Source of the DNA: a virus
Taxonomy: Duplodnaviria; Caudoviricetes
Reading direction: 5' to 3' (one strand)
DNA length: 53,700 nt
IMG/VR virus record: IMGVR_UViG_3300027779_000038
Coordinates: 1-53,700 of that record
The translations under genes and the position numbers were made by a program. The notes under the pieces were generated by a model. That model was not told the DNA's origin. It ran no database searches and was given only the letters and a program-made list of their open reading frames with translations. This document shows, piece after piece, positions 9,015 through 52,860 of the stretch (position 1 is its first letter; each line of letters starts with the position of its first letter).

Positions 9015-9017
9015 AAT

Positions 9018-11771
9018 ATGGCATTAACTAAACTCTCCACAGACGTAATAGATCTTAGTGGTAACACTGAAGCTTTACTAATACCTAAAGGTACAAGTAA
9101 TTCTACTGCATCTGTAGAATACCTTGTTGTTGCCGGCGGTGGTGGTGGAGCTGGTAATAGTTCAGGTGGAGGTGGTGGTGGTGCCGGTGGCTTATTGACC
9201 GCAACTGCTGATTTTGCTATTTCAGCTGCTTTAGATATAAGTGTAGGTGTTGGTGGAGCAGGTACAACAAATGAAACAAGTGGTGCTGTTGGTGTTAATG
9301 GTGGAGATTCTATTTTTTCGACTATAACAGCTACAGGTGGTGGTGGAGCAAAAAATACAGGCTCTGGAGGAAGTAGTTCTGATGGAGGATCTGGTGGTGG
9401 TGCTTCAGGTGGAACAAGTGTAGGTGCTGGAAGTGCAAACCCCACCGGTCAAGGAAATAATGGTGGTATAGGTTCTAATCCTAGTGATATAGGTGGAGGT
9501 GGAGGTGGAGCTGGTGGTGTAGGTCAACCAGGTGGAAATAGATCAGGTTCAACTGATGGTCAAGGTGGTGCCGCAATATCTAATAGTATAGCTGGAACTT
9601 CTTTATTATATGCTGGTGGAGGTGGTGGTGGAGTTTGTGATTTTACTTATAATAGTACGCCAGCCACTGCTGGTCTTGGAGGTGCTGGTGTTTTTGGAAC
9701 TGGAGGAAATGGTGGTCAAAGTGGAGATCAAGGAACTGATCCATATACAGCTGATGGTGGAGTTGGAGTTACTAACACTGGTGGAGGTGGTGGTGGTGGT
9801 TCTAGAAGTGCTGGTGGAACAAATGCAAACGGTGGTGCTGGGGGTTCTGGTGTTGTAATTTTAAGATACCCAACAGCAAATCCAATAACTATAAGTTCTG
9901 GTTTATATGGTAATTATGATTATGGTACAATAGGTCAATGTCATTACCCAGTAACAGCAACTGCTTTGTATAGATTAGAGAATGCCATGAGTGATACTTG
10001 TGGGACTTATAGTGGAACATCTACTAGTTCTCCGTCATATAGTAATACAGCACCTAAATATGGAACCTATAATGCTGTTTTTAATGGGACTAGTAATTAT
10101 ATAAGTACAGGAATAAATTTTTCCACGCTTACTAATGCTAAAAGTATTTCTATGTGGATAAAGTCAACTGGAAGTTCTTCTATTGGATTTGGTGGTATGG
10201 ATGGCTCAAGTGCTAATAATGGATTGTTTTCATTTGATGAATCAGCAGGCAACGTTGCTTATATTCCAGTATTTGGTGGGTATCATACTGGTGATGCAAG
10301 CACGGTTGTAACTAATCAATGGAATCATTTTGTAGTTACAGATACTAATGTTAACGGAAATGTAAAAATTTACATAAATGGTTCGGAAGTTGTTGTTACA
10401 AAGCTTAATAGTAGCTCATACGTTAATAACACCAATATGCAAATTGGTAAACAAATGAGAAATACTGGAACTGCGTTTTTTCAAACTGGTTCAATAGATC
10501 AAATTAGAATATTTCCAAGTGAATTAGATGCAGATCAAGTACAGGCTTTATATTCTGAAACTAATGAAGCTACAACCGGTACAATTGGAACAGAAACTTG
10601 GTCTCAGTTTATTGCCGGTACTGGAACTGTTAGTTTTAGTGGTACTGGTACAGGTAGACCATCCTCACCTACTGAAGGATTAATGAGGGAAAATACTACT
10701 ACAAGTAAAATGGAATTTTATGATGGATCATTATGGCAAGAGATAACAGATACAGCTAGTACATATTCAAATAGTGTAATACCATCTGCTAATTTTAATA
10801 CAGTTATATATTCAAACCCCGGACTTAGTACACCTATTTCAGTTGGTTTTGGCCCTGATATGGTTTTATTTAAAGAAAGGAATGGAATAAACAGTTGGCA
10901 ACTTTATGATACTGTAAGAGGTGATGATTATGCTCTTTATACTAATGATTCTCAAGCTCAATATAATTATAGTACCCACCCAAATGGAGACTTGTCTCCT
11001 ACAATTACATCAACTGGTTTTACTACTCCTCCTGTTACAAACAATGGTATTAATAATTCATCTAACTTTGTATCATATAGCTGGAAAGCCGGAGGCGCAG
11101 CGGTATCAAACACAGATGGTACAATAACAAGCCAAGTATCTGCTAATGTAGATGCAGGATTTAGTATTGTTGAGTGGACTGACCCAAGTGATAACTCCAC
11201 TTATACTGTAGGTCACGGATTAAGCTCAGCACCTGAACTTATTATAACTAAAGAAACCAACGATACAGGTTCTTGGTTAGTTTTTGTTAATGGTATAACT
11301 AGCATAAACCAGTATTTACTTCTTAATAGTACTGGGACAACTGGAACTCTAGCTAACGTTTGGGGAGCTGCTTTACCTAATAGCACCACTTTTGGTTTAA
11401 AATCGGGACAATCTATAACTCTAGGAAAAAATGTTATTGCTTACTGCTTCCATTCAGTAGCAGGATACAGTAAAATAGGTTTTTATGTTGGTAACGGAAG
11501 TACTACAGGACCTGAAATTTATACAGGATTTAAACCCGCATTTATAATAATGAAGAAAACAAATGCTACTTCAAATTGGTATATACATGATAATAAAAGA
11601 AATGGATCAAGTGGTAATGTTGATGGTATTTTGTTTGCTAATCTTTCCGATGCTGAAGATACAACATATAATTATATTGATTTTACTAGTACTGGCTTTG
11701 TATTAAAATTTACTAATTCAGACTATAATACAAACGGAGGAACATATATTTACATGGCAATTGCTGAATAA
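9018..11771 (+). CDS. Gly-rich / LamG (concanavalin-like) virion adhesin (917 aa)
   Basis: VEYLVVAGGGGG...GGSGVVILRY Gly-rich domain; LamG-like SISMWIK...WNHFVVT...KIYING...GSIDQIRIF; C-terminal SNTDGTITSQVSAN..AGFSIV...GHGL domain ending YIYMAIAE, typical of marine phage fibres. Confidence 0.75.
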   Translation: MALTKLSTDVIDLSGNTEALLIPKGTSNSTASVEYLVVAGGGGGAGNSSGGGGGGAGGLLTATADFAISAALDISVGVGGAGTTNETSGAVGVNGGDSIFSTITATGGGGAKNTGSGGSSSDGGSGGGASGGTSVGAGSANPTGQGNNGGIGSNPSDIGGGGGGAGGVGQPGGNRSGSTDGQGGAAISNSIAGTSLLYAGGGGGGVCDFTYNSTPATAGLGGAGVFGTGGNGGQSGDQGTDPYTADGGVGVTNTGGGGGGGSRSAGGTNANGGAGGSGVVILRYPTANPITISSGLYGNYDYGTIGQCHYPVTATALYRLENAMSDTCGTYSGTSTSSPSYSNTAPKYGTYNAVFNGTSNYISTGINFSTLTNAKSISMWIKSTGSSSIGFGGMDGSSANNGLFSFDESAGNVAYIPVFGGYHTGDASTVVTNQWNHFVVTDTNVNGNVKIYINGSEVVVTKLNSSSYVNNTNMQIGKQMRNTGTAFFQTGSIDQIRIFPSELDADQVQALYSETNEATTGTIGTETWSQFIAGTGTVSFSGTGTGRPSSPTEGLMRENTTTSKMEFYDGSLWQEITDTASTYSNSVIPSANFNTVIYSNPGLSTPISVGFGPDMVLFKERNGINSWQLYDTVRGDDYALYTNDSQAQYNYSTHPNGDLSPTITSTGFTTPPVTNNGINNSSNFVSYSWKAGGAAVSNTDGTITSQVSANVDAGFSIVEWTDPSDNSTYTVGHGLSSAPELIITKETNDTGSWLVFVNGITSINQYLLLNSTGTTGTLANVWGAALPNSTTFGLKSGQSITLGKNVIAYCFHSVAGYSKIGFYVGNGSTTGPEIYTGFKPAFIIMKKTNATSNWYIHDNKRNGSSGNVDGILFANLSDAEDTTYNYIDFTSTGFVLKFTNSDYNTNGGTYIYMAIAE

Positions 11772-11779
11772 AATAAAAT

Positions 11780-14314
11780 ATGGCTACAACTAAAATAATA
11801 AATGATCTTATCGATTTAAATCAGACTGGTAATACTACGGCTTTAAAAGGTTGTGTTGGTACAAATGCTCAACAACCTACTACACCTACTATAAGTGTAG
11901 AATACTTAGTTGTAGGTGGCGGTGGCGGCGGCGGTGGATTTGGCCAAGCTGGTGGAGGCGGTGCTGGTGGTTTATCTACTGCCACAATTGGAGTTCCAAA
12001 TAATACAGATCTTAGTATAGTTGTAGGTCAGGGTGGTGCTGGTGGAACAGGTGCTTTACCAGCTACAGGAGCAAACGGTCAAGATTCAGGTTTTTATCAA
12101 ATCCAAGGCCAAGGAGGTGGTGGCAGTCAAGGGCATGAAGGTGGTGGTCTTCCTGGAGGATCAGGTGGTGGTAGTGCTACTTTATCTACGGGTAGTAATA
12201 CTGGTGGCGCTGGAGTTTCAGGGCAAGGTAATGCTGGGGGTACAGCGGTTGTAGCAAATTATGGTGCTCCACATTCAGGTTCAGGCGGTGGTGGTGCAGG
12301 TGCACCAGGCACAGGCGGTAATAATTTTGATGGTGATGGTGGTTCCGGATCAGATGCTGTAGCTTTAGGAATAATAACACAAGCAAATGCAGCAACTGCA
12401 GGTGTTGGAGAAACAAATGGTGCTGAGAGAAATTTTGCTGGAGGAGGCGGAGGTGGCGCTTATGGAGTTACATGCGGCGACGGTGGTGATGGAGGCGGTG
12501 GTGATGGAAATGTTGGTGGCGGAACCCACCCTGTAGCAAATAATGGGTATCCTGGAACAATAAACACCGGCGGTGGCGGTGGTGGAGTTGGATCATATGG
12601 ACCTGATACTAATATTGGCGGATCAGGCGGTTCAGGTGTAGTAATACTTAAATATGCAAATGCTGATGTAGGTAGTATTACAATAGGTGGAAGTTTGATT
12701 GGAGGATTAAGTACTGCAACAGAAACAGATAATGCTTATCCAATAGCAAACACAGCTTTTTATACATTGAATGGAAACTCTACAGATACTAGTAGCACTG
12801 GAAGTTATAATGGTGTTGATGGTAGTAGTATAAGTTATGCTTCTGGATATTTAAATCAAGGAGCTGTTTTTACTCAAGTAACAACCTCTAAAATAGTGAC
12901 ACCTAGTCCAATACCCACAACAACTGATAATGATTTTTCAATATCAATATGGTTTAAATATAATAGTGATTTTACTACAGGTTATATCTCATTATGTGGT
13001 GGTTCTGGTTGGGTTAGTGGAGCTTATCCTACAATATATTTACTTCTTAGATCCACTGGTATTAGTGGGGAATATACAATAAATGGCGCTAGAGGTTTTG
13101 GTGGAACTTTTTATTATGGCCCTCCCGGTAGTGCTTGTCCTTTAATGCATTCAGGAGAATGGTATAATTTAGCAAGCGTTTATACTTCTAGTAATAAAAC
13201 ATTTACTCATTATTTAAACGGATCAGTATTACCAATACCCCAAGCATTAATAAGTTCAGCATCAGGTTCTATAGTTACAAACTTCTGTTATGGTCAATAT
13301 GAGGATAGTGGAAGTTATAGTGCTTACGCATGGGACGGAATGATGGATCAAATTAGAGTATTTAATAATACTGCATTATCAGCTAGTCAAGTTTTATTAT
13401 TATATCAAGACACATTTAAGACTAAATTTGATGATAGTACAAATACAACTTTAGTATTTAAAGGTGGATCTGGAACTATTAATTTAATTGGTTCATCTGT
13501 ACTAGGACCTAAAGTAGGTGATTTAAGAACAAATACAGATCAGACATCAACTAATTACGCAGCAAGTGCAATGGAACATTATATGTCTACAGGGTGGAGA
13601 GTATTTGATAATTCAACCTTAGCTACTTGTAATTATCCTACTACAGCAACAGCTTTGTATCAATTAAATAGCGATGGTGGAACTACAAATAATGTTCCTG
13701 ATACATGCGGAACTTATGATGGTACAGCAACAAGTATTACATATACCACAGGATCAGGAGGTGAGTTTGGTGAGGCTGCAATTTTTAACGGAAGTACAAG
13801 TAAAATAGTAGTACCATCAGCAATCAGTATCTCTACAGATGCAACTGATTTTAATCGTTCTATGTGGATATATACAGATGCTGCATTTACTAGTTTTAGG
13901 GGTATTATTGGAACTAATGATTCTTATTATAATGCTCCCTCAGAACTTTATATTTCAAATGTTAGCGGAAATACCTATAATGCAACTTTTGTAAGAAGAT
14001 ACGGTGGGACTTATTATGGCTTTGCAAACACTAGTAATTTTACACTATTACCTACTACATTTTATCACCTATCTCTAAATTATAGGTATTCTCCACAATC
14101 AATTGATTTATACATTAATGAGTCATTGGTTAGTACAACAACCACAATTGCATTCACAGGTTCTCAATCCGTTTATGCGTATGAATGTCTAGGGCAATAT
14201 AATGGGAACGGGAGTTATTCATCATACGCTTGGGATGGTAGAATAGATCAAGTAAGATTTTTTAATTCAGCTTTAACAAGCGCTCAAGTAACCTTATTAT
14301 ATAACGAACAATAA
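11780..14314 (+). CDS. Gly-rich protein with two LamG-like domains (844 aa), virion adhesin
   Basis: VEYLVVGGGGGG...GGSGVVILKY, then two domains ending WDGMMDQIRVFN and WDGRIDQVRFFN. Confidence 0.75.
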   Translation: MATTKIINDLIDLNQTGNTTALKGCVGTNAQQPTTPTISVEYLVVGGGGGGGGFGQAGGGGAGGLSTATIGVPNNTDLSIVVGQGGAGGTGALPATGANGQDSGFYQIQGQGGGGSQGHEGGGLPGGSGGGSATLSTGSNTGGAGVSGQGNAGGTAVVANYGAPHSGSGGGGAGAPGTGGNNFDGDGGSGSDAVALGIITQANAATAGVGETNGAERNFAGGGGGGAYGVTCGDGGDGGGGDGNVGGGTHPVANNGYPGTINTGGGGGGVGSYGPDTNIGGSGGSGVVILKYANADVGSITIGGSLIGGLSTATETDNAYPIANTAFYTLNGNSTDTSSTGSYNGVDGSSISYASGYLNQGAVFTQVTTSKIVTPSPIPTTTDNDFSISIWFKYNSDFTTGYISLCGGSGWVSGAYPTIYLLLRSTGISGEYTINGARGFGGTFYYGPPGSACPLMHSGEWYNLASVYTSSNKTFTHYLNGSVLPIPQALISSASGSIVTNFCYGQYEDSGSYSAYAWDGMMDQIRVFNNTALSASQVLLLYQDTFKTKFDDSTNTTLVFKGGSGTINLIGSSVLGPKVGDLRTNTDQTSTNYAASAMEHYMSTGWRVFDNSTLATCNYPTTATALYQLNSDGGTTNNVPDTCGTYDGTATSITYTTGSGGEFGEAAIFNGSTSKIVVPSAISISTDATDFNRSMWIYTDAAFTSFRGIIGTNDSYYNAPSELYISNVSGNTYNATFVRRYGGTYYGFANTSNFTLLPTTFYHLSLNYRYSPQSIDLYINESLVSTTTTIAFTGSQSVYAYECLGQYNGNGSYSSYAWDGRIDQVRFFNSALTSAQVTLLYNEQ

Positions 14315-16158
14315 TGGCAATAACAAAAGTAATAACACCAGATCTTATAGATCTTCCTACGACAATATCAAGTGTAGAGACCAATACAGATGGAGTAGTA
14401 TTAGCTAAAGGTTCAACTAGTGGTACCGCATCTGTAGAATACCTTGTTGTAGCCGGTGGTGGTGCTGGTGGTGGTTGGTATCGAGGAGGTGGAGGTGGAG
14501 CTGGTGAATTAAAAGAAAGTACAATAGCTGTAGATATTGGTGTTCAACTTAATTTAACTGTTGGTACAGGTGGTGGTGGTGTGTTTGTAAATAGCAGCGG
14601 TGGATCTAATGGTAACAACGGAATTAATTCTACTTTTGATAGTATAACTTCTTTAGGTGGTGGCGGTGGATCGCCTGGAAACAGTGCTTCTGGAATTATT
14701 GGATCTGACGGAGGATCTGGAGGAGGATCTGGAGGTAACTGGGTTGGAACCACTGCTAGTGGAGGATCTGCTATAGGGACTGGTTCAGGAAATAATGGAG
14801 GAAATGGAGGACCTGGATCTAGTAGTTTTCAGTGCGGTGGAGGAGGTGGTGGTGCTACTCAAGTAGGATTTAATGCTGGTGCATCAAACACTGATGGATA
14901 CGGTGGGGCTGGAAAAACATATTCAAACGTAACAAGTATAACTGGCTCTGCTTTTGACATTGCTGGTGGAGGTGGTGGAGCAAACTACGATTTAGGAAAT
15001 GTAACGCAAGGTGGAACAGGTGGTGGAGCTGCTGGAGCTTCAGGAAGTTCTCCCTATGCAAATGGGCCTTCCGCAGCAAATAACACTGGAAGTGGTGGTG
15101 GTGGTGGAAATGGAGATGTACAACCAAGTAGTGGATCAGGTGGAGCCGGTGGGTCTGGTGTTGTAATTTTAAGAACGGTAAGTACAACTACAGCTACTTT
15201 TGTTAATGCTACTACATCACTAACTCAAGTTGGTGGAGGTGCGTGGACTAGTGGTGATAAAGTTTATACAATTACAGAAACCACAGGTACTGCTACTGTA
15301 ACTTTTTCATCAACAGCTTCAGGTGGTAGACCAGTAACAGGGGGTTCATATATTTTAAAAGATGGTGAATTTAGATACAACACTACAACTAAAAAAGTAG
15401 AGTATTACGATGGAGCTAGTTGGTTTACTTTAATAAGTACAACAGCGGTTCCACAAGCAGGGACAACAGGTGCTTGTAATTATCCAACTACAGCAACTGC
15501 TTTATATCAATTTGAAGATAATGTTAATGATACTTGTCCTGGAGGATTAGACGGAACTATCACGGGAAGTTTATCTTATTCTGCAAGTGGTAAATATGGT
15601 AAAGCATTATCAGGTTTTTCTGGTAACAATTTTGTTGATTTCCCAGGCATAACAGGCGTTTTAGATAATGCTACAAATACAGATTTTACATTTTCTATAT
15701 GGGTAAAATTAAATACTATACCCTCAGTATTTTATGCTGTAACTGGTAAATCAAGTCCTTTTAGTGGAAGTGAATATCAAATGTTTGATTTAATCATATT
15801 TCCAGTATCAGGTAATACAATATCAATTCATACAAGAAGAGGTTATGGGGGTTATAATTACGATCCCTCATCATATGCCGCTACATCAACAATAGTATTA
15901 GGTAATTGGTTTAATATAACTTGTGCTTATACAGCATCAACAAAAGTTAATCAAATATATATTGATGGCACATTATCAGGTAGTGATATTTTAAGTACTC
16001 AAAGTTCAGTAAGAACAATTACATCGGGATACAATATAGGTGCTTATGATTCTACTAGTACATACGCACTTGATGGTGATGTAGATCAAATAAGAATATT
16101 CCCATCTGTATTAACAAGCGCTCAAGTAACAGCTTTAGCAGAAGAAACTGCACCATAA
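14314..16158 (+). CDS. Gly-rich / LamG-like virion adhesin (614 aa)
   Basis: Same Gly-rich domain; GEFRYNTTTKKVEYYDGASW motif; LamG-like FTFSIWVK...DGDVDQIRIF. Confidence 0.75.
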   Translation: MAITKVITPDLIDLPTTISSVETNTDGVVLAKGSTSGTASVEYLVVAGGGAGGGWYRGGGGGAGELKESTIAVDIGVQLNLTVGTGGGGVFVNSSGGSNGNNGINSTFDSITSLGGGGGSPGNSASGIIGSDGGSGGGSGGNWVGTTASGGSAIGTGSGNNGGNGGPGSSSFQCGGGGGGATQVGFNAGASNTDGYGGAGKTYSNVTSITGSAFDIAGGGGGANYDLGNVTQGGTGGGAAGASGSSPYANGPSAANNTGSGGGGGNGDVQPSSGSGGAGGSGVVILRTVSTTTATFVNATTSLTQVGGGAWTSGDKVYTITETTGTATVTFSSTASGGRPVTGGSYILKDGEFRYNTTTKKVEYYDGASWFTLISTTAVPQAGTTGACNYPTTATALYQFEDNVNDTCPGGLDGTITGSLSYSASGKYGKALSGFSGNNFVDFPGITGVLDNATNTDFTFSIWVKLNTIPSVFYAVTGKSSPFSGSEYQMFDLIIFPVSGNTISIHTRRGYGGYNYDPSSYAATSTIVLGNWFNITCAYTASTKVNQIYIDGTLSGSDILSTQSSVRTITSGYNIGAYDSTSTYALDGDVDQIRIFPSVLTSAQVTALAEETAP

Positions 16159-16545: not shown

Positions 16546-18090
16546 ATGTCAGACTTAATAGTCAAGAATCTTAATTTTGGGCAAAGTGCTCAAAATCAAG
16601 TGTTTAAAGGAATTGATAAACTCACACAAGCTGTTAGCTCCACATTAGGGGCTAGCGGTAAATGTGTACTACTAGAAGATGATGCAGGTAGACCATTAAT
16701 TACAAAAGATGGGGTTACAGTTGCAAACTCAATAGTCTTATTAGATCCAGTAGAAAATATGGGGGCCACCCTTTTAAAAGAAGCAGCCCGCAAAACAGTA
16801 AATGAAGCAGGAGACGGTACCACAACCGCAACTGTATTAGCCCATGCAATTCTTAAAGAAGCATCAGAAATAGGTGTAGAAGTAAGTTCTAGGGCACTTA
16901 AAGATGGTATTAACTCAGCTACTAAGAAAGTAGTTAAGTATTTAGAGAAAAATAGCTTACCTGTTAAGGGCGATATGATAGATCATATAGCTACGATATC
17001 AACCAACAATGATCCTGAACTTGGAAAAATTATTGGTGATGCATTTAGATCTGTTGGTCAAACAGGTATAGTTATGATGGATTATTCTCCTGAAGCAGAA
17101 ACAGAAGTAGAGATAGTTGATGGGGTACAATATGATAAAGGGATGGCTAATCCTCATTTTGTAAACAATCCAGAGAAGAAATCATGTGAATTAGAAAATC
17201 CGGCAGTATTATTAATAGAATCACCGGTTGAAAACATAAGACAGATACAATCTGTTTTAGAATATGTTATTAAAAACAAAAAACCTTTACTTATTATAGC
17301 AGACGTAGAAACGCCAGTGGCCGCTACATTAGCTATGAATAAAACAAAAGGCAACATTAAAGTAAATATAATAGGTGCTCCTACTTATGGTGTAAACAAA
17401 CGAGAACAACTCGATGATTTAGCTATGTTAACCGGGGCCACAGTTATAAATGAAGATCTAGGTGATGATATGGATCTTATACAACCAGAAATGTTGGGTA
17501 CATGCTTAAGATCTACTACTACAGAAAAAGATACTGTAATACAAGTGGGTGAACCTTCAGAAGAAATCTTAAGTATTATTACCCAAATTAAAAAAGAATT
17601 ATCAGATGGGCCAATAGCCAGTAAGATAATTATGTTAGAAAAAAGACTCGCAAGACTATCAGCTAAAATAGCGATAGTAAAAGTAGGGGCTAATTCTGAT
17701 ATAGAACTTAAAGAAAAGTCCGATAGAGTAGAAGATGCTATTTGTGCTACAAAAGCAGCAATAAAAGAAGGGATTGTACCCGGTGGTGGTATTGCTCTTT
17801 TAAATGCTATGCAAAATATAAAAGCTAAAAATAAAGGTGAACAAGTATTGCTTAATGCAATTAAATCACCATTTAAAGTAATATTAGACAATGCCGGTAT
17901 TAAATTCCCGGATATATTACCAAAAATAAAAGGTGTAGGATTAAATGTAGTTACAGGTAACTCTGTAGATATGATTACAAATGGTATTATAGATCCTTTA
18001 CTTGTTACTAAAAGTGCATTAATAAATGCGGTATCTGTAGCTACAACAATATTGTCAACTGATTGTGTTATAAACAACTTAAGACAATGA
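16546..18090 (+). CDS. groEL: Phage-encoded chaperonin GroEL (Cpn60)
   Basis: ITKDGVTVA, AGDGTTTATVLA ATP-binding motif, EGIVPGGGIALL and GIIDP..VT. No GGM tail. Confidence 0.97.
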   Translation: MSDLIVKNLNFGQSAQNQVFKGIDKLTQAVSSTLGASGKCVLLEDDAGRPLITKDGVTVANSIVLLDPVENMGATLLKEAARKTVNEAGDGTTTATVLAHAILKEASEIGVEVSSRALKDGINSATKKVVKYLEKNSLPVKGDMIDHIATISTNNDPELGKIIGDAFRSVGQTGIVMMDYSPEAETEVEIVDGVQYDKGMANPHFVNNPEKKSCELENPAVLLIESPVENIRQIQSVLEYVIKNKKPLLIIADVETPVAATLAMNKTKGNIKVNIIGAPTYGVNKREQLDDLAMLTGATVINEDLGDDMDLIQPEMLGTCLRSTTTEKDTVIQVGEPSEEILSIITQIKKELSDGPIASKIIMLEKRLARLSAKIAIVKVGANSDIELKEKSDRVEDAICATKAAIKEGIVPGGGIALLNAMQNIKAKNKGEQVLLNAIKSPFKVILDNAGIKFPDILPKIKGVGLNVVTGNSVDMITNGIIDPLLVTKSALINAVSVATTILSTDCVINNLRQ

Positions 18091-18347
18091 AAGCTATAGG
18101 GAACAATATAATAATTAAAAGTGAGAAAGTAACCACTGATGAAACAAAAGGTGGTTTAATTCTTATTGAAAAAGATAGGGAGGACATAAGATATAAAAAA
18201 GCCCGTGTTGTCTCTGTTAGTAATGATATAAAAGGTCTTAAAGAAAAAGATGAAATATATTATGATAAACATGCTGGTCATGGTATAGAGTTTAACAAAG
18301 AAAAGTTTACTGTTATAAAATTACAGGATGTCGTAGTGGTATTATGA
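18087..18347 (+). CDS. groES: Co-chaperonin GroES (Cpn10), 86 aa
   Basis: Start chosen at the ATGA overlap with the groEL stop (MKAIGNNIII...). Mobile loop TKGGLIL; ARVVSV...DEIYY...DVVVVL. Confidence 0.9.
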   Translation: MKAIGNNIIIKSEKVTTDETKGGLILIEKDREDIRYKKARVVSVSNDIKGLKEKDEIYYDKHAGHGIEFNKEKFTVIKLQDVVVVL

Positions 18348-22797: not shown

Positions 22798-23178
22798 ATG
22801 TTTAAATTCTTACTAGGTCTTTTAGGCAAAGGTAACGGAGATAAAACCGTTGCTGGTAACTTGGCTTGGGATATAAGAGAAGCAATAAAAGGTAAAGAGT
22901 TAGACCCTGAAAAATTAATAGAATTACAAACAAAGATCAATGCAGTTGAAGCTCAGCACCGTACATTATTCGTTGCTGGGTGGAGACCGTTTATTGGTTG
23001 GATATGTGGAGTAGCATTGGCCTATAATTTTGTCATAAGAGACTTATTTATATGGGTTACAAAAACTACCGAAGCTCCACCCGCTTTACAGATGGATCAT
23101 TTAATGACCGTATTGTTAGGTATGTTAGGCTTAGGTGGATTAAGAACTTACGAAAAAATTAAAGGAAAAGATAAATAA
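22798..23178 (+). CDS. Holin, 3TM / GTA-holin family
   Basis: FVAGWRPFIGWICG and LLGMLGLGGLRTYEKIKG signature motifs. Confidence 0.85.
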   Translation: MFKFLLGLLGKGNGDKTVAGNLAWDIREAIKGKELDPEKLIELQTKINAVEAQHRTLFVAGWRPFIGWICGVALAYNFVIRDLFIWVTKTTEAPPALQMDHLMTVLLGMLGLGGLRTYEKIKGKDK

Positions 23179-24220: not shown

Positions 24221-24443
24221 TAAAGTTATAAGAAAAATCAGCATTGGTTCTGATTATAAAAATGATGCCATGCACTATGCTATAGGACAGCAAGTGTATG
24301 GTGGTCACACAATCTCTCATGTGCTATATGATGAAGAAGAATCATCTTATAATATTTTTATTAAAAAAGAAGATGAGGTATTACCATGGAAAAAATTTAA
24401 TTCCAATATGGCTATATCGGTCGAATATGATCTAGAATACTAA
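24213..24443 (+). CDS. Conserved hypothetical protein (76 aa, GTG start)
   Basis: IRKISIGSDYKNDAMHY..GQ.VYGGH...WKKFN.NMAISVEY; coupled to both neighbours. Confidence 0.75.
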   Translation: MSSKVIRKISIGSDYKNDAMHYAIGQQVYGGHTISHVLYDEEESSYNIFIKKEDEVLPWKKFNSNMAISVEYDLEY

Positions 24444-25060
24444 TGAACAGCATTTACCAGTTTATAATACAGCCTATTGGTAAAAGATATAATAATAAAA
24501 TAAATGTTGATGATAAAGAATTAATTATTAATTCTAGTATTTCAGATCATAAATTCATTAATAGAACTGCTAAAGTTATCGGTGTTCCACTTGGAATAAA
24601 AACTTATATTAAAAAAGGAGACATAGTTATAGTACATCATAACATATTTAGAAGATACTATGATATGAAAGGCAAATCAGTAAATGGATCTAAGTTTTTT
24701 AAAGATGATTTATACTTTGCAATGCCTTCTCAAATATATTTATATAAAAGAAATGATGAGTGGAAAACAAATGAAAATTTTTGTTTTGTAAAACCACTTT
24801 ATGAAAAGAATGAATTTAAGGATAATAAATTAAAAAAGAACATTGGTATATTAAAGTATAGTAATAGTTCATTAGAAGTGCTAGAAATAACAGAAGGAGA
24901 CGTGGTAGGATTTAAACCTAAGCGAGAATTTGAGTTTGTTATTGATAAGCAACTTTTATATTGTATGGAATCAAATGATATTGTAATTAAATATGAACAC
25001 AAAGGAAACGAAATTAAATATAATCCAAGCTGGGCAAAAAGCAGTAGAGGAATTAATTAA
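24443..25060 (+). CDS. Tandem GroES-like (two Cpn10-fold repeats) protein
   Basis: Repeat 1: FIIQP...AKVIGVP...IKKGDIVIV. Repeat 2: FCFVKP...GILKY...ITEGDVVGF...EFEFVID..LLY.M..NDIV. Confidence 0.55.
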   Translation: MNSIYQFIIQPIGKRYNNKINVDDKELIINSSISDHKFINRTAKVIGVPLGIKTYIKKGDIVIVHHNIFRRYYDMKGKSVNGSKFFKDDLYFAMPSQIYLYKRNDEWKTNENFCFVKPLYEKNEFKDNKLKKNIGILKYSNSSLEVLEITEGDVVGFKPKREFEFVIDKQLLYCMESNDIVIKYEHKGNEIKYNPSWAKSSRGIN

Positions 25061-25265
25061 AGTTGCAAAAGAAAAAATTGTAGATTCAGAAGAAGATATT
25101 TCTGCTGATAGATTAAAAAATGCAGCGGCTACAAAAAAATTAGCTATCTTTGATGCTTTTGAAATACTAACACGTATAGAAGAAGAGGAAAGTATGTTAA
25201 AAGAAAGTTCTAAAAAAGATAAAGGCGCAAACTTTAAAGGTTTTGCAGAGGGGAGATCTAAATAA
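24993..25265 (+). CDS. Probable terminase small subunit
   Basis: 90-aa helical protein immediately upstream of and TAATG-coupled to terL; overlaps the previous gene by 68 nt. Confidence 0.55.
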   Translation: MNTKETKLNIIQAGQKAVEELIKVAKEKIVDSEEDISADRLKNAAATKKLAIFDAFEILTRIEEEESMLKESSKKDKGANFKGFAEGRSK

Positions 25266-27496
25266 TGTATCAACAAACTCTATATAAAATTTTACCAGAC
25301 CATATTAAATCTAAAGTACTTAAAAGAAATAATAGATATAAAAAATGGGAGACAGGTTACAATGAAGAATATGATATTATTGTTATTAGTAAAACTGGTC
25401 AAATTGGTGAAGTATATGAAATACAAGGTCTCAAAGTGGCACTTCCATTAGAAAAGGACATTTATAAAAGATCAGGCAAAAAAGATGAACAATATTGGGA
25501 ATCTCATAGTTATCCATCAGAATTATCAAAAATTAAAACAGTTTTTGATTGGAATAATTATCCTTCCCTTTTTAAAGATAAATGGTATGATTACATTGAT
25601 GAAGAGTTTAAAAGACGCGATGAAGGGTTCTGGTTCTATAACAAAGGTAATCCTAGTTATATTACTGGTTCTCATTACATGTACCTGCAATGGACCAAGA
25701 TTGATGTTGGGCAACCAGATTTTAGGGAGTCAAACAGGATCTTTTACATTTTCTGGGAGGCATGCAAGTTGGACACCCGATCTTACGGATTGTGTTACCT
25801 TAAGAACAGACGTTCTGGATTTTCATTCATGGCATCTTCGGAACTTGTACACCAGGCAACCATCTCTTCGGATTCCAGATATGGGATATTATCGAAGACT
25901 GGAGCTGATGCAAAGAAGATGTTTACCGATAAAGTTGTACCCATATCAGTCAATTACCCCTTTTTCTTCAAACCGATCCAGGACGGTATGGACCGTCCCA
26001 AGACCGAACTCGCCTATAGGATCCCTGCCTCGAAACTCACACGGCGAAAACTTGATAAGAACGAACGTCCCGAGGACCTTGTCGGGTTGGACACCACAAT
26101 CGATTGGAAGAACACAGGGGACAACTCGTATGACGGTGAGAAACTTAAGATCCTTGCCCACGACGAATCCGGGAAATGGGAGCGTCCAGACAACATCCTC
26201 AATAACTGGCGTGTCACGAAAACAACGTTAAGATTAGGTAGCAGAATAATTGGTAGATGCATGATGGGTTCAACATCCAATGCACTAGATAAAGGAGGGA
26301 CTAATTTTAAAAAACTATATGATTCATCAAACGTCACAAATAGAAACCGTAATGGTCAGACTAACTCAGGACTATATAGTTTGTTCATACCTATGGAATG
26401 GAATTACGAAGGATACATCGATATGCATGGATTTCCTGTATTCGACACTCCAAAAAAACCCGTCGCCGGCATTGATGGATCCAAGATTCAGATCGGAGTT
26501 ATCTCGCATTGGGAAAACGAAGTTGATGGTTTAAAAGATGATCAAGATAGTTTAAACGAATTTTATCGTCAGTTTCCACGAACAGAAAAACATGCTTTTA
26601 GAGATGAAGCAAAACAATCTTTATTTAATTTAACTAAGATTTATGAACAAATAGATTATAATGAAGATTTAAGAAATACAAATATTTTAACACAAGGTAG
26701 CTTTCAATGGGAAGGAGGGGTTAAAGATACAAGAGTCATGTTTTATCCTAATAAAAATGGAAGATTTTTAATATCATGGATTCCACCATCGCAGTTACAA
26801 AATAAATATTTAATTAAAAATGGTATAAAATATCCAGGTAACGATCATACTGGTGCGTTTGGCTGTGATTCTTATGATATATCAGGAACAGTAGACGGTA
26901 GAGGTTCAAATGGATCTCTTCATGGTTTAACTAAGTTTTCTATGGAGGATGTTCCTCCTAATAGTTTTTTTTTAGAATACATAGCAAGACCCCAAACTTC
27001 TGATATATTTTTTGAAGAAGTATTAATGGCTTTAGTTTTTTATGGTATGCCAATATTAGCTGAAAATAACAAACCAAGATTGTTATACTACTTAAAAAGA
27101 AGAGGATACAGGGGATATTCTATAAATAGACCAGACAAAACATATAATAAACTATCTGTAACAGAAAGAGAAATAGGTGGTATACCTAATTCAAGTGAAG
27201 ATATAAAGCAAGCTCACGCAGCTGCTGTAGAGGATTATATAGAAAATTTTGTTGGTCAAGTAAACGAAGGATATGGAGACATGTATTTTCAAAGAACACT
27301 AGAAGATTGGGCTAAGTTTAATATAAATAACAGAACAAAACATGATGCGTCTATTAGTTCGGGGTTAGCAATAATGGCGTGTAATAAAAATAGATATGCA
27401 CCATATGCTGAAAGGATAATATCAAAAGTCCCAGTTGGTATTAAAAGATATGACAATAAAGGGTACAATTCAAAAATAATGAAAATAAATGGTTAA
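25265..27496 (+). CDS. terL: Terminase large subunit
   Basis: Walker A-like LKNRRSGFS, Walker B LAHDESGKW, coupling motif MGSTS, RNase H-like nuclease FGCDSYD and terminal HDASISSG; precedes the portal gene. Confidence 0.92.
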   Translation: MYQQTLYKILPDHIKSKVLKRNNRYKKWETGYNEEYDIIVISKTGQIGEVYEIQGLKVALPLEKDIYKRSGKKDEQYWESHSYPSELSKIKTVFDWNNYPSLFKDKWYDYIDEEFKRRDEGFWFYNKGNPSYITGSHYMYLQWTKIDVGQPDFRESNRIFYIFWEACKLDTRSYGLCYLKNRRSGFSFMASSELVHQATISSDSRYGILSKTGADAKKMFTDKVVPISVNYPFFFKPIQDGMDRPKTELAYRIPASKLTRRKLDKNERPEDLVGLDTTIDWKNTGDNSYDGEKLKILAHDESGKWERPDNILNNWRVTKTTLRLGSRIIGRCMMGSTSNALDKGGTNFKKLYDSSNVTNRNRNGQTNSGLYSLFIPMEWNYEGYIDMHGFPVFDTPKKPVAGIDGSKIQIGVISHWENEVDGLKDDQDSLNEFYRQFPRTEKHAFRDEAKQSLFNLTKIYEQIDYNEDLRNTNILTQGSFQWEGGVKDTRVMFYPNKNGRFLISWIPPSQLQNKYLIKNGIKYPGNDHTGAFGCDSYDISGTVDGRGSNGSLHGLTKFSMEDVPPNSFFLEYIARPQTSDIFFEEVLMALVFYGMPILAENNKPRLLYYLKRRGYRGYSINRPDKTYNKLSVTEREIGGIPNSSEDIKQAHAAAVEDYIENFVGQVNEGYGDMYFQRTLEDWAKFNINNRTKHDASISSGLAIMACNKNRYAPYAERIISKVPVGIKRYDNKGYNSKIMKING
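25620..26231 (+). CDS. Putative lipoprotein overprinted in the +1 frame of terL (203 aa from Met at 25620; frame open from 25485)
   Basis: 248 stop-free codons in +1. MKGSGSITKVILVILLVLITC|TC signal-peptide/lipobox-like N-terminus. Coincides with a sharp GC rise in terL. Confidence 0.65.
   Translation: MKGSGSITKVILVILLVLITCTCNGPRLMLGNQILGSQTGSFTFSGRHASWTPDLTDCVTLRTDVLDFHSWHLRNLYTRQPSLRIPDMGYYRRLELMQRRCLPIKLYPYQSITPFSSNRSRTVWTVPRPNSPIGSLPRNSHGENLIRTNVPRTLSGWTPQSIGRTQGTTRMTVRNLRSLPTTNPGNGSVQTTSSITGVSRKQR
26427..26534 (+). CDS. Possible second overprinted peptide in terL +1 frame (MDFLYSTLQKNPSPALMDPRFRSELSRIGKTKLMV; ORF open from 26319)
   Basis: Same +1 frame; a local GC-rich island at about 26400-26530 ends at its stop codon. 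Confidence 0.4.
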   Translation: MDFLYSTLQKNPSPALMDPRFRSELSRIGKTKLMV

Positions 27497-51957: not shown

Positions 51958-52335
51958 ATGGAAAATGAAAAAAAAGAAATGCGTCATTACATCGGTGCGG
52001 CCGGTATATTTACTTTAATCATATTATTATTAATGTTTTTAAGTTATGTAGAAATACCACCAGTTAATAAAGACTTATTCGTGGCGATCGTGGGAACTTT
52101 AGTTTCCAGTTTAGGAATCGTCGTTTATGTCATAATTGGACAACAGCCGGATGAAGTTACTAAATTACAAAAGAAAAACGAGTCATTAGAATCAATAACT
52201 CATCAAATGGAAAAACGTAATGATCAACTTGAAGAAATGATCATTGAAATGCAAGCAAAGATGATACAAAAATTAACTTTTTTTGGTGATCAATGTTCTT
52301 GCGGGAAAGATAATTGTGATTGTAAAACTAAATAA
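51958..52335 (+). CDS. Two-TM membrane protein with coiled coil and Cys-rich tail (possible lysis accessory)
   Basis: Two hydrophobic helices, a heptad region and a CSCGKDNCDC end; lies upstream of the endolysin. Confidence 0.65.
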   Translation: MENEKKEMRHYIGAAGIFTLIILLLMFLSYVEIPPVNKDLFVAIVGTLVSSLGIVVYVIIGQQPDEVTKLQKKNESLESITHQMEKRNDQLEEMIIEMQAKMIQKLTFFGDQCSCGKDNCDCKTK

Positions 52336-52341
52336 CTAAAT

Positions 52342-52422
52342 ATGACATCAAATGAAATTACTATAGTAATATTGATTGTTATTATAGTTGGTTTTTTAGT
52401 TGGAATTAAACTAAATAAATAA
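52342..52422 (+). CDS. 26-aa single-TM peptide (MTSNEITIVILIVIIVGFLVGIKLNK)
   Basis: Not in the ORF track; TAATG-coupled to the endolysin start. Confidence 0.5.
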   Translation: MTSNEITIVILIVIIVGFLVGIKLNK

Positions 52423-52775
52423 TGCAATATTTTAACATAACAGAATTTGATAGTCCAGATCACCTAGGTAGTGGTAAGGCTATGAAGCAGCATGTATTAG
52501 ATATGTTGGATGAAGCTCGTGGAAAGTTTGACAAAGCTATAGTTATAACCTCAGGTTATAGAACTAAATCTCATAATGAGAAAGTTGGTGGAGTAAAAAA
52601 TAGCGCTCACCTTGGTGGATGGGCTGCTGATATTTCTTGTAGAACTTCAAGAGATAGATATCATTTAGTAAATTGCTTACTAGACGTTGGGTTTAATCGT
52701 ATAGGGGTAGCGGGTACATTTATTCATGTTGACGCAGACCCAGATAAAGACCCAGACATAATGTGGACATATTAA
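52422..52775 (+). CDS. Peptidase M15A-family endolysin (Zn peptidase)
   Basis: ITSGYRT..HN..VGG...SAH..G.AADI...GF.RIGV...FIHVD. Confidence 0.88.
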   Translation: MQYFNITEFDSPDHLGSGKAMKQHVLDMLDEARGKFDKAIVITSGYRTKSHNEKVGGVKNSAHLGGWAADISCRTSRDRYHLVNCLLDVGFNRIGVAGTFIHVDADPDKDPDIMWTY

Positions 52776-52823: not shown

Positions 52824-52860
52824 TGAAGGGAGATCATAACGGTCTCCCTTCATTATTTTT
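52824..52860 (+). terminator. Terminator between the convergent structural and nrdA transcription units
   Basis: TGAAGGGAGATC-ataac-GGTCTCCCTTCA 12-bp hairpin followed by TTATTTTT. Confidence 0.8.

What the first reader, a model, noticed from the sequence alone, without database searches (positions are those of the whole stretch)
25485..26231. Lipoprotein-like gene overprinted in the +1 frame of the terminase ATPase domain
Seen: a 248-codon stop-free ORF in the +1 frame inside terL. In this AT-rich genome TTA/ATA/GTA codons followed by A/G normally put frequent stops in that frame. terL composition changes over this stretch (35/60 GC at 25981-26040 versus 12/60 at 26641-26700) while the TerL motifs stay intact, so its wobble positions appear constrained by a second code. 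From Met 25620 the product reads MKGSGSITK-VILVILLVLIT-C-T-C, then an aromatic/Arg middle and a Ser/Thr/Pro/Arg-rich disordered tail. Known: lambda Rz1 is a lipoprotein embedded in the +1 frame of Rz, and no separate spanin gene is evident in this window. Inference: a hidden membrane lipoprotein (o-spanin-like, superinfection exclusion or receptor masking) co-expressed with DNA packaging.
Basis: partly seen in the sequence, partly recalled or inferred. Interest (0 to 1): 0.85.

Follow-up and report, generated by a model that had tools for sequence, protein, structure and literature searches.

The report
Hidden gene inside phage terminase gene
A second, previously unannotated protein-coding gene appears to be written in a shifted reading frame inside the DNA-packaging (terminase) gene of a family of uncultured marine phages, a clear natural example of a new gene being born on top of an old, essential one.

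Summary
terL (25265-27496) holds a 248-codon +1-frame ORF (25485-26231). Over that stretch terL GC3 rises from about 0.1-0.2 to 0.5-0.6.

It is not chance or composition. The +1 core (terL codons 112-256, first codon = 0) is stop-free in 65 of 81 family members (TerL 75-89% identical, synonymous sites near saturation). It is stop-free in 0 of 80 sister-family members despite GC3 of 0.42, and in neither of 2 annotated outgroups. Leu/Ile/Val codons avoid wobble A only where it would make a +1 stop (0 of 582, against 57% of 683 elsewhere). Four four-fold terL codons are held at T (253 of 260), which builds a Leu-rich helix. The GC3 patch ends at each lineage's own +1 stop.

The product (145-220 aa) has a basic N-terminus, one hydrophobic helix followed by C-x-C, and a basic, disordered, fast-evolving tail. 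It matches no known family.

I read it as a genuine overprinted gene for a membrane-targeted accessory protein. It probably arose once and was lost at least 4 times.

Function and translation are untested.

The parts
25265..27496 (+). terL, large terminase subunit, 743 aa; the host gene of the overlap
   Evidence: phrog_6681 'terminase large subunit', E 4.5e-163, residues 27-738. tblastn finds 87 phage records, with annotated TerL at 45-64% identity.
25485..26231 (+). +1-frame ORF as reported (248 codons, from the first ATG after the +1 stop at 25449)
   Evidence: The part from 25485 to 25586 is not conserved as open frame in most relatives, which have +1 stops at codons 86, 89, 100 or 110.
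25587..26231 (+). Proposed overprinted gene: 214 aa from the family-conserved ATG (terL codon 107) to TAA/TAG/TGA at 26229-26231. Alternative starts are 25599 (codon 111) and 25620 (codon 118).
   Evidence: ATG at codon 107 in 50 of 68 sequences. Of the 18 without it, 15 have ATG at codon 111 or 112. All 64 ORF-bearing relatives have an ATG at codons 105-128 downstream of their last +1 stop. The core is stop-free in 65 of 81.
25602..25646 (+). Positively charged N-terminal flank of the +1 product (codons 112-126)
   Evidence: K+R mean 3.51 here against 1.65 in the 15 residues after the helix. There are more on the N side in 54 of 65 sequences.
25632..25688 (+). Hydrophobic helix of the +1 product (codons 122-140). 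The Leu-rich core is 25647-25679. Cys138 is at 25680-25682 and Cys140 at 25686-25688.
   Evidence: AF2 helix at residues 16-34, pLDDT 56-66. Kyte-Doolittle 19-aa window >=1.6 in 64 of 64 relatives' products and in the window's own product; the relatives have no second such segment. terL four-fold codons 129, 130, 133 and 135 carry wobble T in 63, 62, 65 and 63 of 65 ORF-bearing sequences, against 6, 6, 2 and 8 of 13 ORF-lacking ones. Four-fold column identity is 0.785 against 0.354.
25689..26228 (+). Basic, hydrophilic, predicted-disordered tail of the +1 product (codons 141-320 in the window). Its length varies between lineages (ends at codons 257-323).
   Evidence: AF2 pLDDT <50 and no secondary structure. 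Net charge about +8 over codons 141-256; rich in L, S, Q, T and R. No positional conservation at terL four-fold sites (0.381 against 0.499 in ORF-lacking sequences). ORF ends are listed.
25640..26230 (+). GC3-rich patch of terL, read here as the compositional footprint of the +1 ORF
   Evidence: GC3 0.40-0.62 against 0.06-0.22 further along the gene. Across 65 sequences, GC3 is 0.50 in the last 60 codons inside the ORF and 0.26 in the first 60 after its stop. Spearman 0.89 between ORF end and GC3 of codons 262-320.
25802..25825 (+). terL P-loop-like motif (residues 180-187), overlapped by the +1 ORF
   Evidence: K180, R182, R183, S184, G185, F186 and S187 are invariant in 25 TerL sequences. 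Calling this motif Walker A is recalled, not tested.
22798..23178 (+). Context: holin-like gene 2.1 kb upstream of terL
   Evidence: phrog_3427 'holin', E 2e-26. PF11351 GTA_holin_3TM, 40.3 bits against cut-off 24.8.
51958..52775 (+). Context: lysis cassette at the end of the late gene block. It holds a 125-aa protein with two hydrophobic segments and a helical C-terminus, a 26-aa hydrophobic ORF (52342-52422), and a Peptidase_M15_3 endolysin candidate (52422-52775).
   Evidence: (PF08291, 65.3 bits against cut-off 23.2).

Best explanation
A real protein-coding gene is overprinted in the +1 frame of the N-terminal half of terL. That half is the presumed ATPase domain.

Shown by comparison: selection keeps this frame open. 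Selection holds a Leu-rich hydrophobic helix in place. Selection keeps the downstream part hydrophilic, which is what raises terL GC3.

Inferred mechanism: ribosomes start inside the late terL mRNA at ATG 25587, or at 25599 or 25620. The lysine-rich N-terminus stays in the cytoplasm. The single helix inserts into the inner membrane, either as a signal anchor or as a cleaved signal peptide. The basic, disordered tail of 90-180 aa lies outside the membrane.

Inferred role: a dispensable late accessory factor acting at the cell envelope. My best guess is tuning or assisting lysis, in the manner of small membrane proteins embedded in other phage genes.

History: the gene most simply arose once by overprinting at the base of this phage family, and was later lost or replaced at least four times.

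My odds: real selected coding gene about 0.85. Membrane-targeted product about 0.7. Envelope or lysis role about 0.3.
For: Codon numbers count the first terL codon as 0.

(1) Open frame. There are 0 stops in +1 codons 112-256 in 65 of 81 sequences. Thirteen sequences have 3-7 stops and 3 have 1-2. TerL identity to the window is 75-89%. Four-fold sites outside the overlap are near saturation: median pairwise identity 0.48 against 0.39 expected by composition.

(2) Controls. The sister family has 0 of 80 stop-free (2-11 stops) at core GC3 0.42. Outgroups MW202828 and NC_055854 have 6 and 11 stops. The other four frames carry stops in all 65. The window's other 13 large genes reach at most an 88-codon open run.

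(3) Stop-specific codon choice. In the ORF-bearing core, L/I/V codons before a purine-starting codon have wobble A in 0 of 582 cases. Before a pyrimidine-starting codon they have it in 57.4% of 683. Elsewhere in the same genes the two figures are 61% and 63%. In ORF-lacking cores they are 57% and 69%.

(4) Shuffle test. A synonymous shuffle that keeps each sequence's local codon usage expects 1.4-4.9 stops, with P(0) between 0 and 0.15 per sequence. Thirteen lineages separated at four-fold identity <=0.6 give a summed log10 P of -32.5.

(5) Protein-level constraint. Wobble T in 253 of 260 cells at four four-fold codons makes Leu in the +1 frame, against 22 of 52 in ORF-lacking sequences. Synonymous differences in close pairs are 0.139 in the helix against 0.207 in the C-terminal part of terL (odds ratio 0.62, p 0.001). 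The hydropathy peak is 2.3-2.5, followed by a hydrophilic tail, and this contrast is absent in ORF-lacking sequences.

(6) GC3 tracks each lineage's own +1 stop.

(7) Start codon upkeep.

(8) Product features. One TM-like segment in 64 of 64 relatives' products and in the window's own. AF2 gives a helix and then disorder. The N-flank holds more K+R in 54 of 65.

(9) No RNA-structure signal: z = +0.49.

(10) Tree. Well-supported branches force at least 4 changes of state, with ORF-lacking groups nested among ORF-bearing ones and the outgroups lacking the ORF.
Against: There is no direct evidence of translation. The RNA-library contigs show presence only, and carry no frame information.

The tail shows no positional conservation and evolves faster than the rest of terL at wobble sites. 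Only the helix, the open frame and the composition are constrained.

Much of the apparent +1 conservation is forced by TerL Met and Trp codons, not by the second gene. This covers Cys138, Gly142, Cys218 and Trp241.

Start position is not fixed. Two sequences have an ATG only at codon 126, and one (L056, among the 3 with 1-2 stops) has none.

Sixteen of 81 family members lack an intact core, so the gene is dispensable.

Per-sequence shuffle P is only 0.03-0.15 for some sequences. The sequences are phylogenetically related, so the combined P overstates independence.

The 'ORF-bearing' group was defined by having no stops, so the 0 of 582 figure is partly circular. The informative part is the contrast with the pyrimidine context and with the control groups.

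No family, fold or homologue outside terL gives a functional handle.

No promoter-like site was found just upstream. That scan uses a sigma-70 consensus only, which may not apply to this host group.
Confidence: 0.8

Rival explanations
1. One reading: the product is a Sec/SPII lipoprotein. It would act as an o-spanin-like outer-membrane lipoprotein, or as a superinfection-exclusion or receptor-masking lipoprotein. Lgt/LspA would process it at Cys138.
For: A charged N-region is followed by an 11-residue Leu-rich h-region and then directly by Cys, in all 65 sequences. Thr is preferred over Ile at -1 (46 against 19; the reverse, 4 against 9, in ORF-lacking sequences), which is the smaller of the two residues TerL allows. 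Embedding in a +1 frame is the classic o-spanin arrangement (lambda Rz1 recalled; T7 18.7 inside 18.5 is annotated). No o-spanin was recognised elsewhere in the window.
Against: The -1 residue is Thr or Ile in 65 of 65, never Ala, Gly or Ser; Ile at -1 occurs in 19. The same applies to Cys140 (-1 is Thr, Ile or Ser). The host gene is terL, not an i-spanin gene. The tail is 90-180 aa and 5% Pro. It shows no conserved residues of its own. No SPII predictor could be run here.
Confidence: 0.12
2. There is no independent gene. The +1 frame is read through a programmed ribosomal frameshift from terL, giving a TerL N-terminal domain fused to the hydrophobic helix and tail.
For: Six of the 10 database proteins I inspected are TerL/+1 chimeras, so such fusions exist in called genes. 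The confidently folded N-terminal TerL region (residues about 10-140, pLDDT 60-92) ends about where the +1 helix begins.
Against: The chimera junctions lie at different places and run in both directions, TerL to +1 and +1 to TerL. That is what indels or assembly errors would give. Thirteen ORF-bearing sequences have a +1 stop at codon 110; 11 of them have an ATG at 111/112 right after it and 2 (L010, L046) only at 126, leaving at most about 15 codons for any shift site. Reaching the +1 frame needs a +1 or -2 shift, which is rare (recalled). No 0-frame stop or hungry-codon context is present, because terL is open throughout.
Confidence: 0.05
3. Compositional or chance artefact: a GC-rich patch, for instance a recombinant segment or an effect of amino-acid composition, simply has fewer +1 stops.
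For: GC3 is high exactly where the frame is open. Minus-strand ORFs of 52-107 aa also appear in the patch. ORF-lacking relatives lack the GC3 rise.
Against: The sister family has GC3 0.42 yet 0 of 80 are stop-free. ORF-bearing relatives with core GC3 of only 0.26-0.34 (for example L074, L043, L060) are still stop-free. Wobble A is avoided only in the stop-making context. Only the +1 frame is open. Wobble T is enriched in the helix and depleted just after it. The patch is not a recent import: wobble sites are saturated between carriers, and no donor above 0.9 nucleotide identity was found.
Confidence: 0.03
4. A nucleic-acid-level element inside terL (RNA structure, packaging site, regulatory site) constrains wobble positions, and the open frame is a by-product.
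For: Wobble conservation is concentrated in a short stretch, codons 127-137. That could be a binding site.
Against: The folding energy of 25640-26230 is ordinary: z = +0.49, and 66 of 100 shuffles fold at least as well. A local element cannot explain stop avoidance over 145-260 codons, with saturated wobble sites and an end that differs by lineage. The conserved wobble letters are all T at positions that give Leu, which points to the protein level.
Confidence: 0.03

Closest known systems
Single-gene lysis proteins embedded in +1 frames (Sgl of ssRNA phages; phiX174 E inside gene D)
   Same: A small or medium protein lies fully embedded in the +1 frame of a large essential gene. It has one conserved predicted TM segment and a divergent remainder, no homologues, and arose de novo. 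In PMC7693330 (abstract and passages read), 21 of 33 active Sgl genes lie in rep in the +1 frame, and related pairs keep their TMDs but have 'highly divergent periplasmic domains'. The phiX174 E details are recalled.
   Different: Those phages have tiny genomes and no holin-endolysin system. This one is a dsDNA phage (contig 53.7 kb, estimated 83% complete) with a holin-like gene and an M15 peptidase. The product here is longer (145-220 aa). Lytic activity is untested. The host gene segment here is highly conserved, whereas that paper reports most Sgl genes in less conserved parts of rep.
Lambda Rz1 within Rz; T7 18.7 within 18.5 (o-spanin embedded in the i-spanin gene)
   Same: A late-expressed envelope protein is encoded in a shifted frame inside another late gene. 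It has an N-terminal charged and hydrophobic segment followed by Cys. The T7 pair is annotated in NC_001604.
   Different: The host gene is terL, not an i-spanin gene. The lipobox -1 position is Thr or Ile, not Ala, Gly or Ser. The product is not short and not Pro-rich. No partner was identified.
T7 genes 19.2 and 19.3
   Same: These are annotated ORFs embedded in the +1 frame of the large terminase gene (gene 19) of a podophage. I computed the frame from the coordinates.
   Different: They are 85 and 57 codons, and are labelled 'hypothetical protein' in the record. By eye they show no similarity to this product and no comparable helix-plus-tail layout. I know of no evidence that they are conserved or expressed (recalled, not searched successfully; one search failed).
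Overprinted viral genes in general (reviewed in PMC8227390; composition study PMC6195259)
   Same: De novo origin inside an older gene. The product is predicted disordered and enriched in six-fold-degenerate residues (L 12.3%, S 9.6%, R 7.2%). Taxonomic range is narrow. I saw only the search listings and abstracts of these two papers.
   Different: Most documented cases are in small RNA or ssDNA viruses. The listing shows 0 occurrences of 'terminase' in both papers.

Membership tests
Overlapping (overprinted) protein-coding gene | The alternative frame is kept open across diverged relatives beyond compositional expectation | tested here: met
   65 of 81 are stop-free in the core. The sister family has 0 of 80. 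Shuffles expect 1.4-4.9 stops. A-avoidance is context-specific.
Overlapping (overprinted) protein-coding gene | Selection on the encoded alternative-frame protein (constraint at host-gene synonymous sites) | tested here: met
   Met for the helix. Wobble T in 253 of 260 cells. Four-fold identity 0.785 against 0.354. Synonymous differences 0.139 against 0.207. Not met for the tail, where only composition and openness are constrained.
Overlapping (overprinted) protein-coding gene | Usable start codon maintained | tested here: met
   ATG at codon 107 in 50 of 68. ATG at 111/112 in 15 of the other 18. All 64 ORF-bearing relatives have an ATG at codons 105-128.
Overlapping (overprinted) protein-coding gene | Translation demonstrated (Ribo-seq, peptides, reporter) | not testable with these tools
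   Only contigs from RNA libraries were available. They show presence and give no frame or start information.
Bacterial lipoprotein (Sec/SPII) signal | Positively charged n-region followed by a short hydrophobic h-region | tested here: met
   K+R mean 3.51 in codons 112-126. Leu-rich codons 127-137.
Bacterial lipoprotein (Sec/SPII) signal | Lipobox with Ala, Gly or Ser at -1 before the lipidated Cys (consensus recalled) | tested here: not met
   The -1 position before Cys138 is Thr in 46 and Ile in 19 of 65. The -1 position before Cys140 is Thr 57, Ile 6, Ser 2.
Bacterial lipoprotein (Sec/SPII) signal | Predictor score or experimental lipidation | not testable with these tools
   SignalP and LipoP are not available here. 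No experiment is possible.
Two-component spanin, o-spanin subunit | Gene embedded in, overlapping or adjacent to an i-spanin gene of the lysis cassette | tested here: not met
   The ORF is embedded in terL. The lysis genes lie at 22798-23178 and 51958-52775.
Two-component spanin, o-spanin subunit | Small mature lipoprotein, usually Pro-rich (recalled) | tested here: not met
   Products are 145-220 aa. The tail is 5.1% Pro.
Single-gene lysis protein (Sgl/amurin) | Embedded ORF with a predicted TM domain in a phage gene | tested here: met
   +1 frame of terL. One TM-like segment in 64 of 64 relatives' products and in the window's own.
Single-gene lysis protein (Sgl/amurin) | Causes lysis when expressed alone; the phage lacks a holin-endolysin system | tested here: not met
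   The second half is not met: a holin-like gene and a Peptidase_M15_3 gene are present. Lytic activity itself is not testable here.
Large terminase subunit (host gene) | Full-length match to a TerL family profile | tested here: met
   phrog_6681, E 4.5e-163, residues 27-738 of 743. No Pfam hit and no PDB sequence hit.
Programmed ribosomal frameshift product | Conserved shift site upstream, with no independent start needed | tested here: inconclusive
   No motif search was done. A +1 stop at codon 110 is followed by ATG at 111/112 in 11 of 13 sequences, and the chimera junctions are scattered; both argue against it.

The most novel reading that the evidence does not exclude
A gene born de novo inside the ATPase-domain coding region of terL encodes a new class of late, membrane-inserted phage effector in Bacteroidota-type marine podophages. 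It could be an amurin-like inhibitor of envelope synthesis, or a spanin substitute or lysis-timing factor for hosts whose phages have no recognised spanins. Its repeated loss, and the relaxation of GC3 that follows, give a natural time series of gene birth and death on top of the most conserved phage gene.
Probability: 0.25. Interest if true: 0.9.

Novelty: new variant of a known kind. Interest (0 to 1): 0.8.

Why it matters
terL is the hallmark gene used to classify tailed phages, and it is assumed to be single-coding. Three things follow from this case.

First, a 145-220-codon second gene can be overprinted on terL's conserved N-terminal half and kept for long evolutionary times.

Second, local GC3 anomalies and skewed codon usage inside core phage genes can be the footprint of hidden genes.

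Third, standard gene callers miss such genes. In the protein database this ORF surfaced only as 32 unnamed entries, and 6 of the 10 I inspected were TerL/+1 chimeras.

The family also offers many independent carriers, at least four losses and close carrier/non-carrier pairs. That makes it a good system for studying the birth, constraint and decay of overlapping genes.

If the product acts on the envelope or on lysis, it would add a component to the poorly known lysis systems of phages of marine Bacteroidota.

Tried and rejected
- The protein-atlas search could not read the sequence.

Searches that gave nothing.
- Pfam and PHROGs on the +1 product: 0 families for the window's product. Over the 60 aligned products, only 1-2 members hit any family, at E about 0.005.
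- The search for homologous proteins with the +1 product gave 32 hits. The 10 I read look like the same terL-embedded ORF or TerL/+1 chimeras, and none carries an informative name (one is labelled 'hypothetical protein') or a Pfam domain. The other 22 were not inspected. No free-standing homologue was seen. Only 'near' lengths were searched.
- PDB sequence searches with TerL alone and with a 25-sequence profile gave nothing meaningful.

Structure predictions.
- The AF2 model of TerL was poor (mean pLDDT 46.1). I ran no fold search, so the 'ATPase domain' label rests on motifs read by eye.
- The AF2 model of the +1 product has low confidence apart from the helix. I take that as consistent with disorder, not as proof.

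Other scans.
- The sigma-70 promoter and terminator scan of 24900-26500 found 3 promoter-like sites against 5.5 expected, none just upstream of the ORF start, and no terminators.
- RNA folding of 25640-26230 gave z = +0.49.

RNA libraries. Four seawater RNA-library runs hold short contigs, some identical to the window (X1: 25609-25779, 25809-26090, 26380-26591, 27113-27293 with 0 differences). These are contigs, DNA carry-over cannot be excluded, and they give no start, strand-level or frame information.

Origin of ORF-lacking members nested among carriers. I could not separate recombination from decay. No donor core above 0.9 nucleotide identity was found. The sister pair L045/L048 is 0.88 identical in the C-terminal part, while L045 is not among L048's four best core matches (all <=0.802).

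Trees. The careful IQ-TREE run did not finish, so the quick tree was used. The other trees are FastTree.

Script failures. Scripts stopped with errors after printing the figures I cite.

T7 19.2 and 19.3. I compared them by eye only.

Literature. Searches found no report of a gene embedded in terL of these phages. One search failed on a too-short term. Supplementary files were not consulted.

Not done. I did not scan metagenome contigs or genome contigs. I did not compare whole genomes of carriers and non-carriers.

Full report
Codon numbers below count the first terL codon as 0.

WHAT IS THERE.

The window is a whole IMG/VR virus record: 53.7 kb, linear, estimated 83% complete. Its genes run almost all on the + strand.

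terL lies at 25265-27496 (743 aa). It matches phrog_6681 over nearly its full length. Its closest cultured relatives are Flavobacterium, Cellulophaga and Tenacibaculum podophages, at below 60% TerL identity.

The reported +1 ORF 25485-26231 exists. The +1 frame is open for 259 codons, between stops at 25449 and 26229.

The compositional change is at the third codon position. GC3 is 0.10-0.22 at both ends of the gene (windows starting at 25265-25490 and at 26540 onwards) and 0.40-0.62 in windows starting at 25640-26090.

Nothing comparable occurs in 13 other large genes of the window. None has a 60-codon window with GC3 >=0.42, and the longest +1 or +2 open run is 88 codons.

COMPARATIVE TEST.

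A scan of viral contigs returned 80 relatives with TerL 75-89% identical to the window's. I codon-aligned them to the window's terL.

In 64 of these 80, and in the window, the +1 frame has no stop across terL codons 112-256. Thirteen have 3-7 stops there, and three have 1-2.

In the 65 stop-free sequences, the other four alternative frames always carry stops. The minima are 8, 3, 6 and 7.

A second scan, seeded with the nearest annotated relative (MW202828, 64% identical), gave 80 members of a sister family (63-68% identical to the window's TerL). None is stop-free in the core (2-11 stops), although their GC3 there averages 0.42. MW202828 itself has 6 stops in the core, and a Flavobacterium elemo phage has 11.

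So raised GC3 alone does not open this frame.

THE SIGNATURE IS SPECIFIC TO STOP CODONS.

A +1 stop arises when a Leu, Ile or Val codon ending in A (or G) is followed by a codon starting with a purine.

In the stop-free group, such codons in the core end in A in 0 of 582 cases when the next codon starts with a purine. They end in A in 57.4% of 683 cases when it starts with a pyrimidine. In the rest of the same genes the two contexts give 61% and 63%. In the cores of the stop-bearing group they give 57% and 69%.

The zero is partly built into how I defined the group. The contrast with the harmless context and with the controls is not.

A synonymous shuffle that keeps each sequence's own local codon usage (a conservative null) expects 1.4-4.9 stops per stop-free sequence, with P(0) between 0 and 0.15. 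Stop-bearing sequences sit at expectation.

Four-fold sites outside the overlap are close to saturation among carriers: median pairwise identity 0.48, against 0.39 expected from composition. Taking 13 lineages that differ at more than 40% of four-fold sites, the summed log10 P is -32.5. This figure overstates independence but shows the scale.

PROTEIN-LEVEL CONSTRAINT.

terL wobble positions are the second codon positions of the +1 frame.

At four four-fold-degenerate terL codons (129, 130, 133, 135), the wobble base is T in 63, 62, 65 and 65... corrected: 63, 62, 65 and 63 of 65 carriers. That gives Leu in the +1 frame. The figures are 6, 6, 2 and 8 of 13 in non-carriers.

Mean four-fold column identity over codons 127-137 is 0.785 in carriers and 0.354 in non-carriers.

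In 23 non-overlapping close pairs of carriers, synonymous differences are 0.139 in the helix region against 0.207 in the C-terminal part of terL (odds ratio 0.62, p 0.001).

Immediately downstream the trend reverses. Wobble T is depleted and C and G are enriched, so the +1 product becomes hydrophilic. Hydropathy is 2.3-2.5 at codons 130-135 and then -0.3 to -1.3. In non-carriers the peak is weaker (0.35 and 1.53 at those two centres) and the downstream part is more hydrophobic.

The tail shows no positional conservation (0.381 against 0.499). It changes slightly faster than the rest of terL at synonymous sites (0.248 against 0.207).

The GC3 patch follows the ORF. GC3 is 0.50 in the last 60 codons inside each lineage's ORF and 0.26 in the 60 codons after its stop. 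ORF ends range from codon 257 to 323. The ORF end correlates with GC3 of codons 262-320 (Spearman 0.89).

I therefore read the GC-rich patch as the footprint of the second gene, not as its cause.

RNA folding of the patch is unremarkable (z = +0.49).

THE PRODUCT.

An ATG at codon 107 (25587 in the window) is present in 50 of 68 sequences. Of the 18 without it, 15 have an ATG at codon 111 or 112. Eleven of the 13 carriers with a +1 stop at codon 110 have that ATG directly after it. All 64 carrier relatives have an ATG between codons 105 and 128.

Products are 145-220 aa, median 186. Each has exactly one 19-residue window with Kyte-Doolittle mean >=1.6.

AlphaFold2 with a 60-sequence alignment gives helices at residues 2-12 and 16-34 (pLDDT 56-66) and no structure after that (mean pLDDT 40.8).

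The flank before the helix has more Lys and Arg than the flank after it in 54 of 65 sequences. By the positive-inside rule (recalled), this puts the N-terminus in the cytoplasm.

The tail is basic (net about +8 over codons 141-256) and rich in Leu, Ser, Gln, Thr and Arg.

Several 'invariant' residues, including Cys138, are forced by terL Met or Trp codons. They say nothing about the second gene.

No Pfam or PHROG family matches. A search of the large protein database found 32 unnamed entries. The 10 I read are the same embedded ORF or TerL/+1 chimeras whose junctions lie at different places. I take those to be indels in contigs.

LIPOPROTEIN AND SPANIN.

The segment looks like a lipoprotein signal at first sight. 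But the residue before Cys138 is Thr (46) or Ile (19), never Ala, Gly or Ser. The residue before Cys140 is Thr, Ile or Ser (57, 6, 2). The terL Tyr-Met codons permit only Thr or Ile at the first site.

The preference for Thr in carriers (46 to 19, against 4 to 9 in non-carriers) is a weak hint of selection for the smaller residue.

The ORF is not in or next to an i-spanin gene, and it is neither short nor Pro-rich.

The window has a holin-like gene at 22798-23178. It also has a separate cassette at 51958-52775 with a two-segment membrane protein, a 26-codon hydrophobic ORF and a Peptidase_M15_3 gene.

I therefore do not file the product as a lipoprotein or an o-spanin. I also cannot exclude non-canonical processing.

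HISTORY.

With the two outgroups, a FastTree of full-length TerL places a 16-member clade (15 carriers and 1 with a single core stop) against the remaining 65. Non-carriers form four separate groups nested among carriers: a clade of 9, L015, L048, and L019+L071. Well-supported branches force at least four changes of state. Trees of the C-terminal part and of the core agree that non-carriers are scattered.

The simplest reading is one origin by overprinting after the split from the sister family, followed by at least four losses or allelic replacements. Three further sequences have 1-2 stops and may be recent losses.

I could not decide between decay and recombination for the nested non-carriers.

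HOW IT LIKELY WORKS, AND WHAT IT RESEMBLES.

What is shown: a frame kept open by selection, a selected hydrophobic helix, a selected hydrophilic composition, and a maintained start codon.

What is inferred: internal initiation on the late terL mRNA, membrane insertion with the N-terminus inside, and a dispensable accessory role at the envelope.

The closest analogues in design are the single-gene lysis proteins embedded in +1 frames of essential genes. These have conserved TM domains and divergent remainders (PMC7693330, passages read; phiX174 E recalled). The embedded o-spanins are a second analogue. T7 even carries two annotated +1 ORFs (19.2, 19.3) inside its terminase gene, though they are short and unrelated by eye.

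Unlike Sgl-bearing phages, this phage has holin-like and endolysin candidates. A helper or timing role is therefore more plausible than sole lysis.

Four literature searches found no report of such a gene in terL.

VERDICT.

The lipoprotein/spanin label is not supported. Function and translation remain to be shown.

This is a new variant of a known kind of thing: an overprinted phage gene, here in an unexpected host gene, in a large dsDNA phage family, and with an unusually clear evolutionary record.

Noticed in passing
window 51958-52775: A lysis-type cassette sits at the end of the late gene block. It holds a 125-aa protein with two hydrophobic segments and a helical, Cys-rich C-terminus, a 26-codon hydrophobic ORF (52342-52422), and a Peptidase_M15_3 gene (52422-52775). 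The holin-like gene (PF11351, phrog_3427) lies 29 kb away at 22798-23178.
   Followed up: partly
window 16546-18347 and 24443-25060: The phage encodes a GroEL (phrog_5725, E 2.8e-132) followed by a GroES-like gene. A second GroES-like gene (phrog_13932) lies shortly upstream of terL, with one 90-codon ORF (24993-25265) between them.
   Followed up: no
window 9018-16158: Three tandem genes (917, 844 and 614 aa) share an N-terminal phrog_2295 domain. Their locally GC-rich, G-skewed patches (GC 0.45-0.51 at 9001-9600, 12001-12600 and 14401-15000) are not GC3-driven: no 60-codon window reaches GC3 0.42. So they reflect amino-acid composition, not a second frame.
   Followed up: partly
database proteins P0009, P0011, P0012, P0022, P0031, P0032: Six of the 10 inspected database entries are chimeras of the TerL frame and the +1 frame. 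Their junctions lie at different places and run in both directions. They are probably indels in metagenome contigs. They also show that gene callers report the hidden ORF mainly when terL is broken.
   Followed up: partly
L045 versus L048 (terL codons 112-322): These are sister sequences, 0.88 nucleotide-identical in the C-terminal part of terL. One carries the open +1 frame with GC3 0.42-0.62. The other has 5 core stops with GC3 0.08-0.14. This is either allelic replacement of the N-terminal half or very fast decay after loss.
   Followed up: partly
window 52859-53698 (- strand): The only sizeable minus-strand gene is a fragment matching the ribonucleotide reductase barrel domain (PF02867, E 7.4e-41). 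It runs off the end of the record.
   Followed up: no
window 17385-18077 (- strand): A 230-codon antisense ORF lies inside the GroEL gene. I did not examine it, and antisense open frames opposite chaperonin genes are a known compositional effect (recalled).
   Followed up: no
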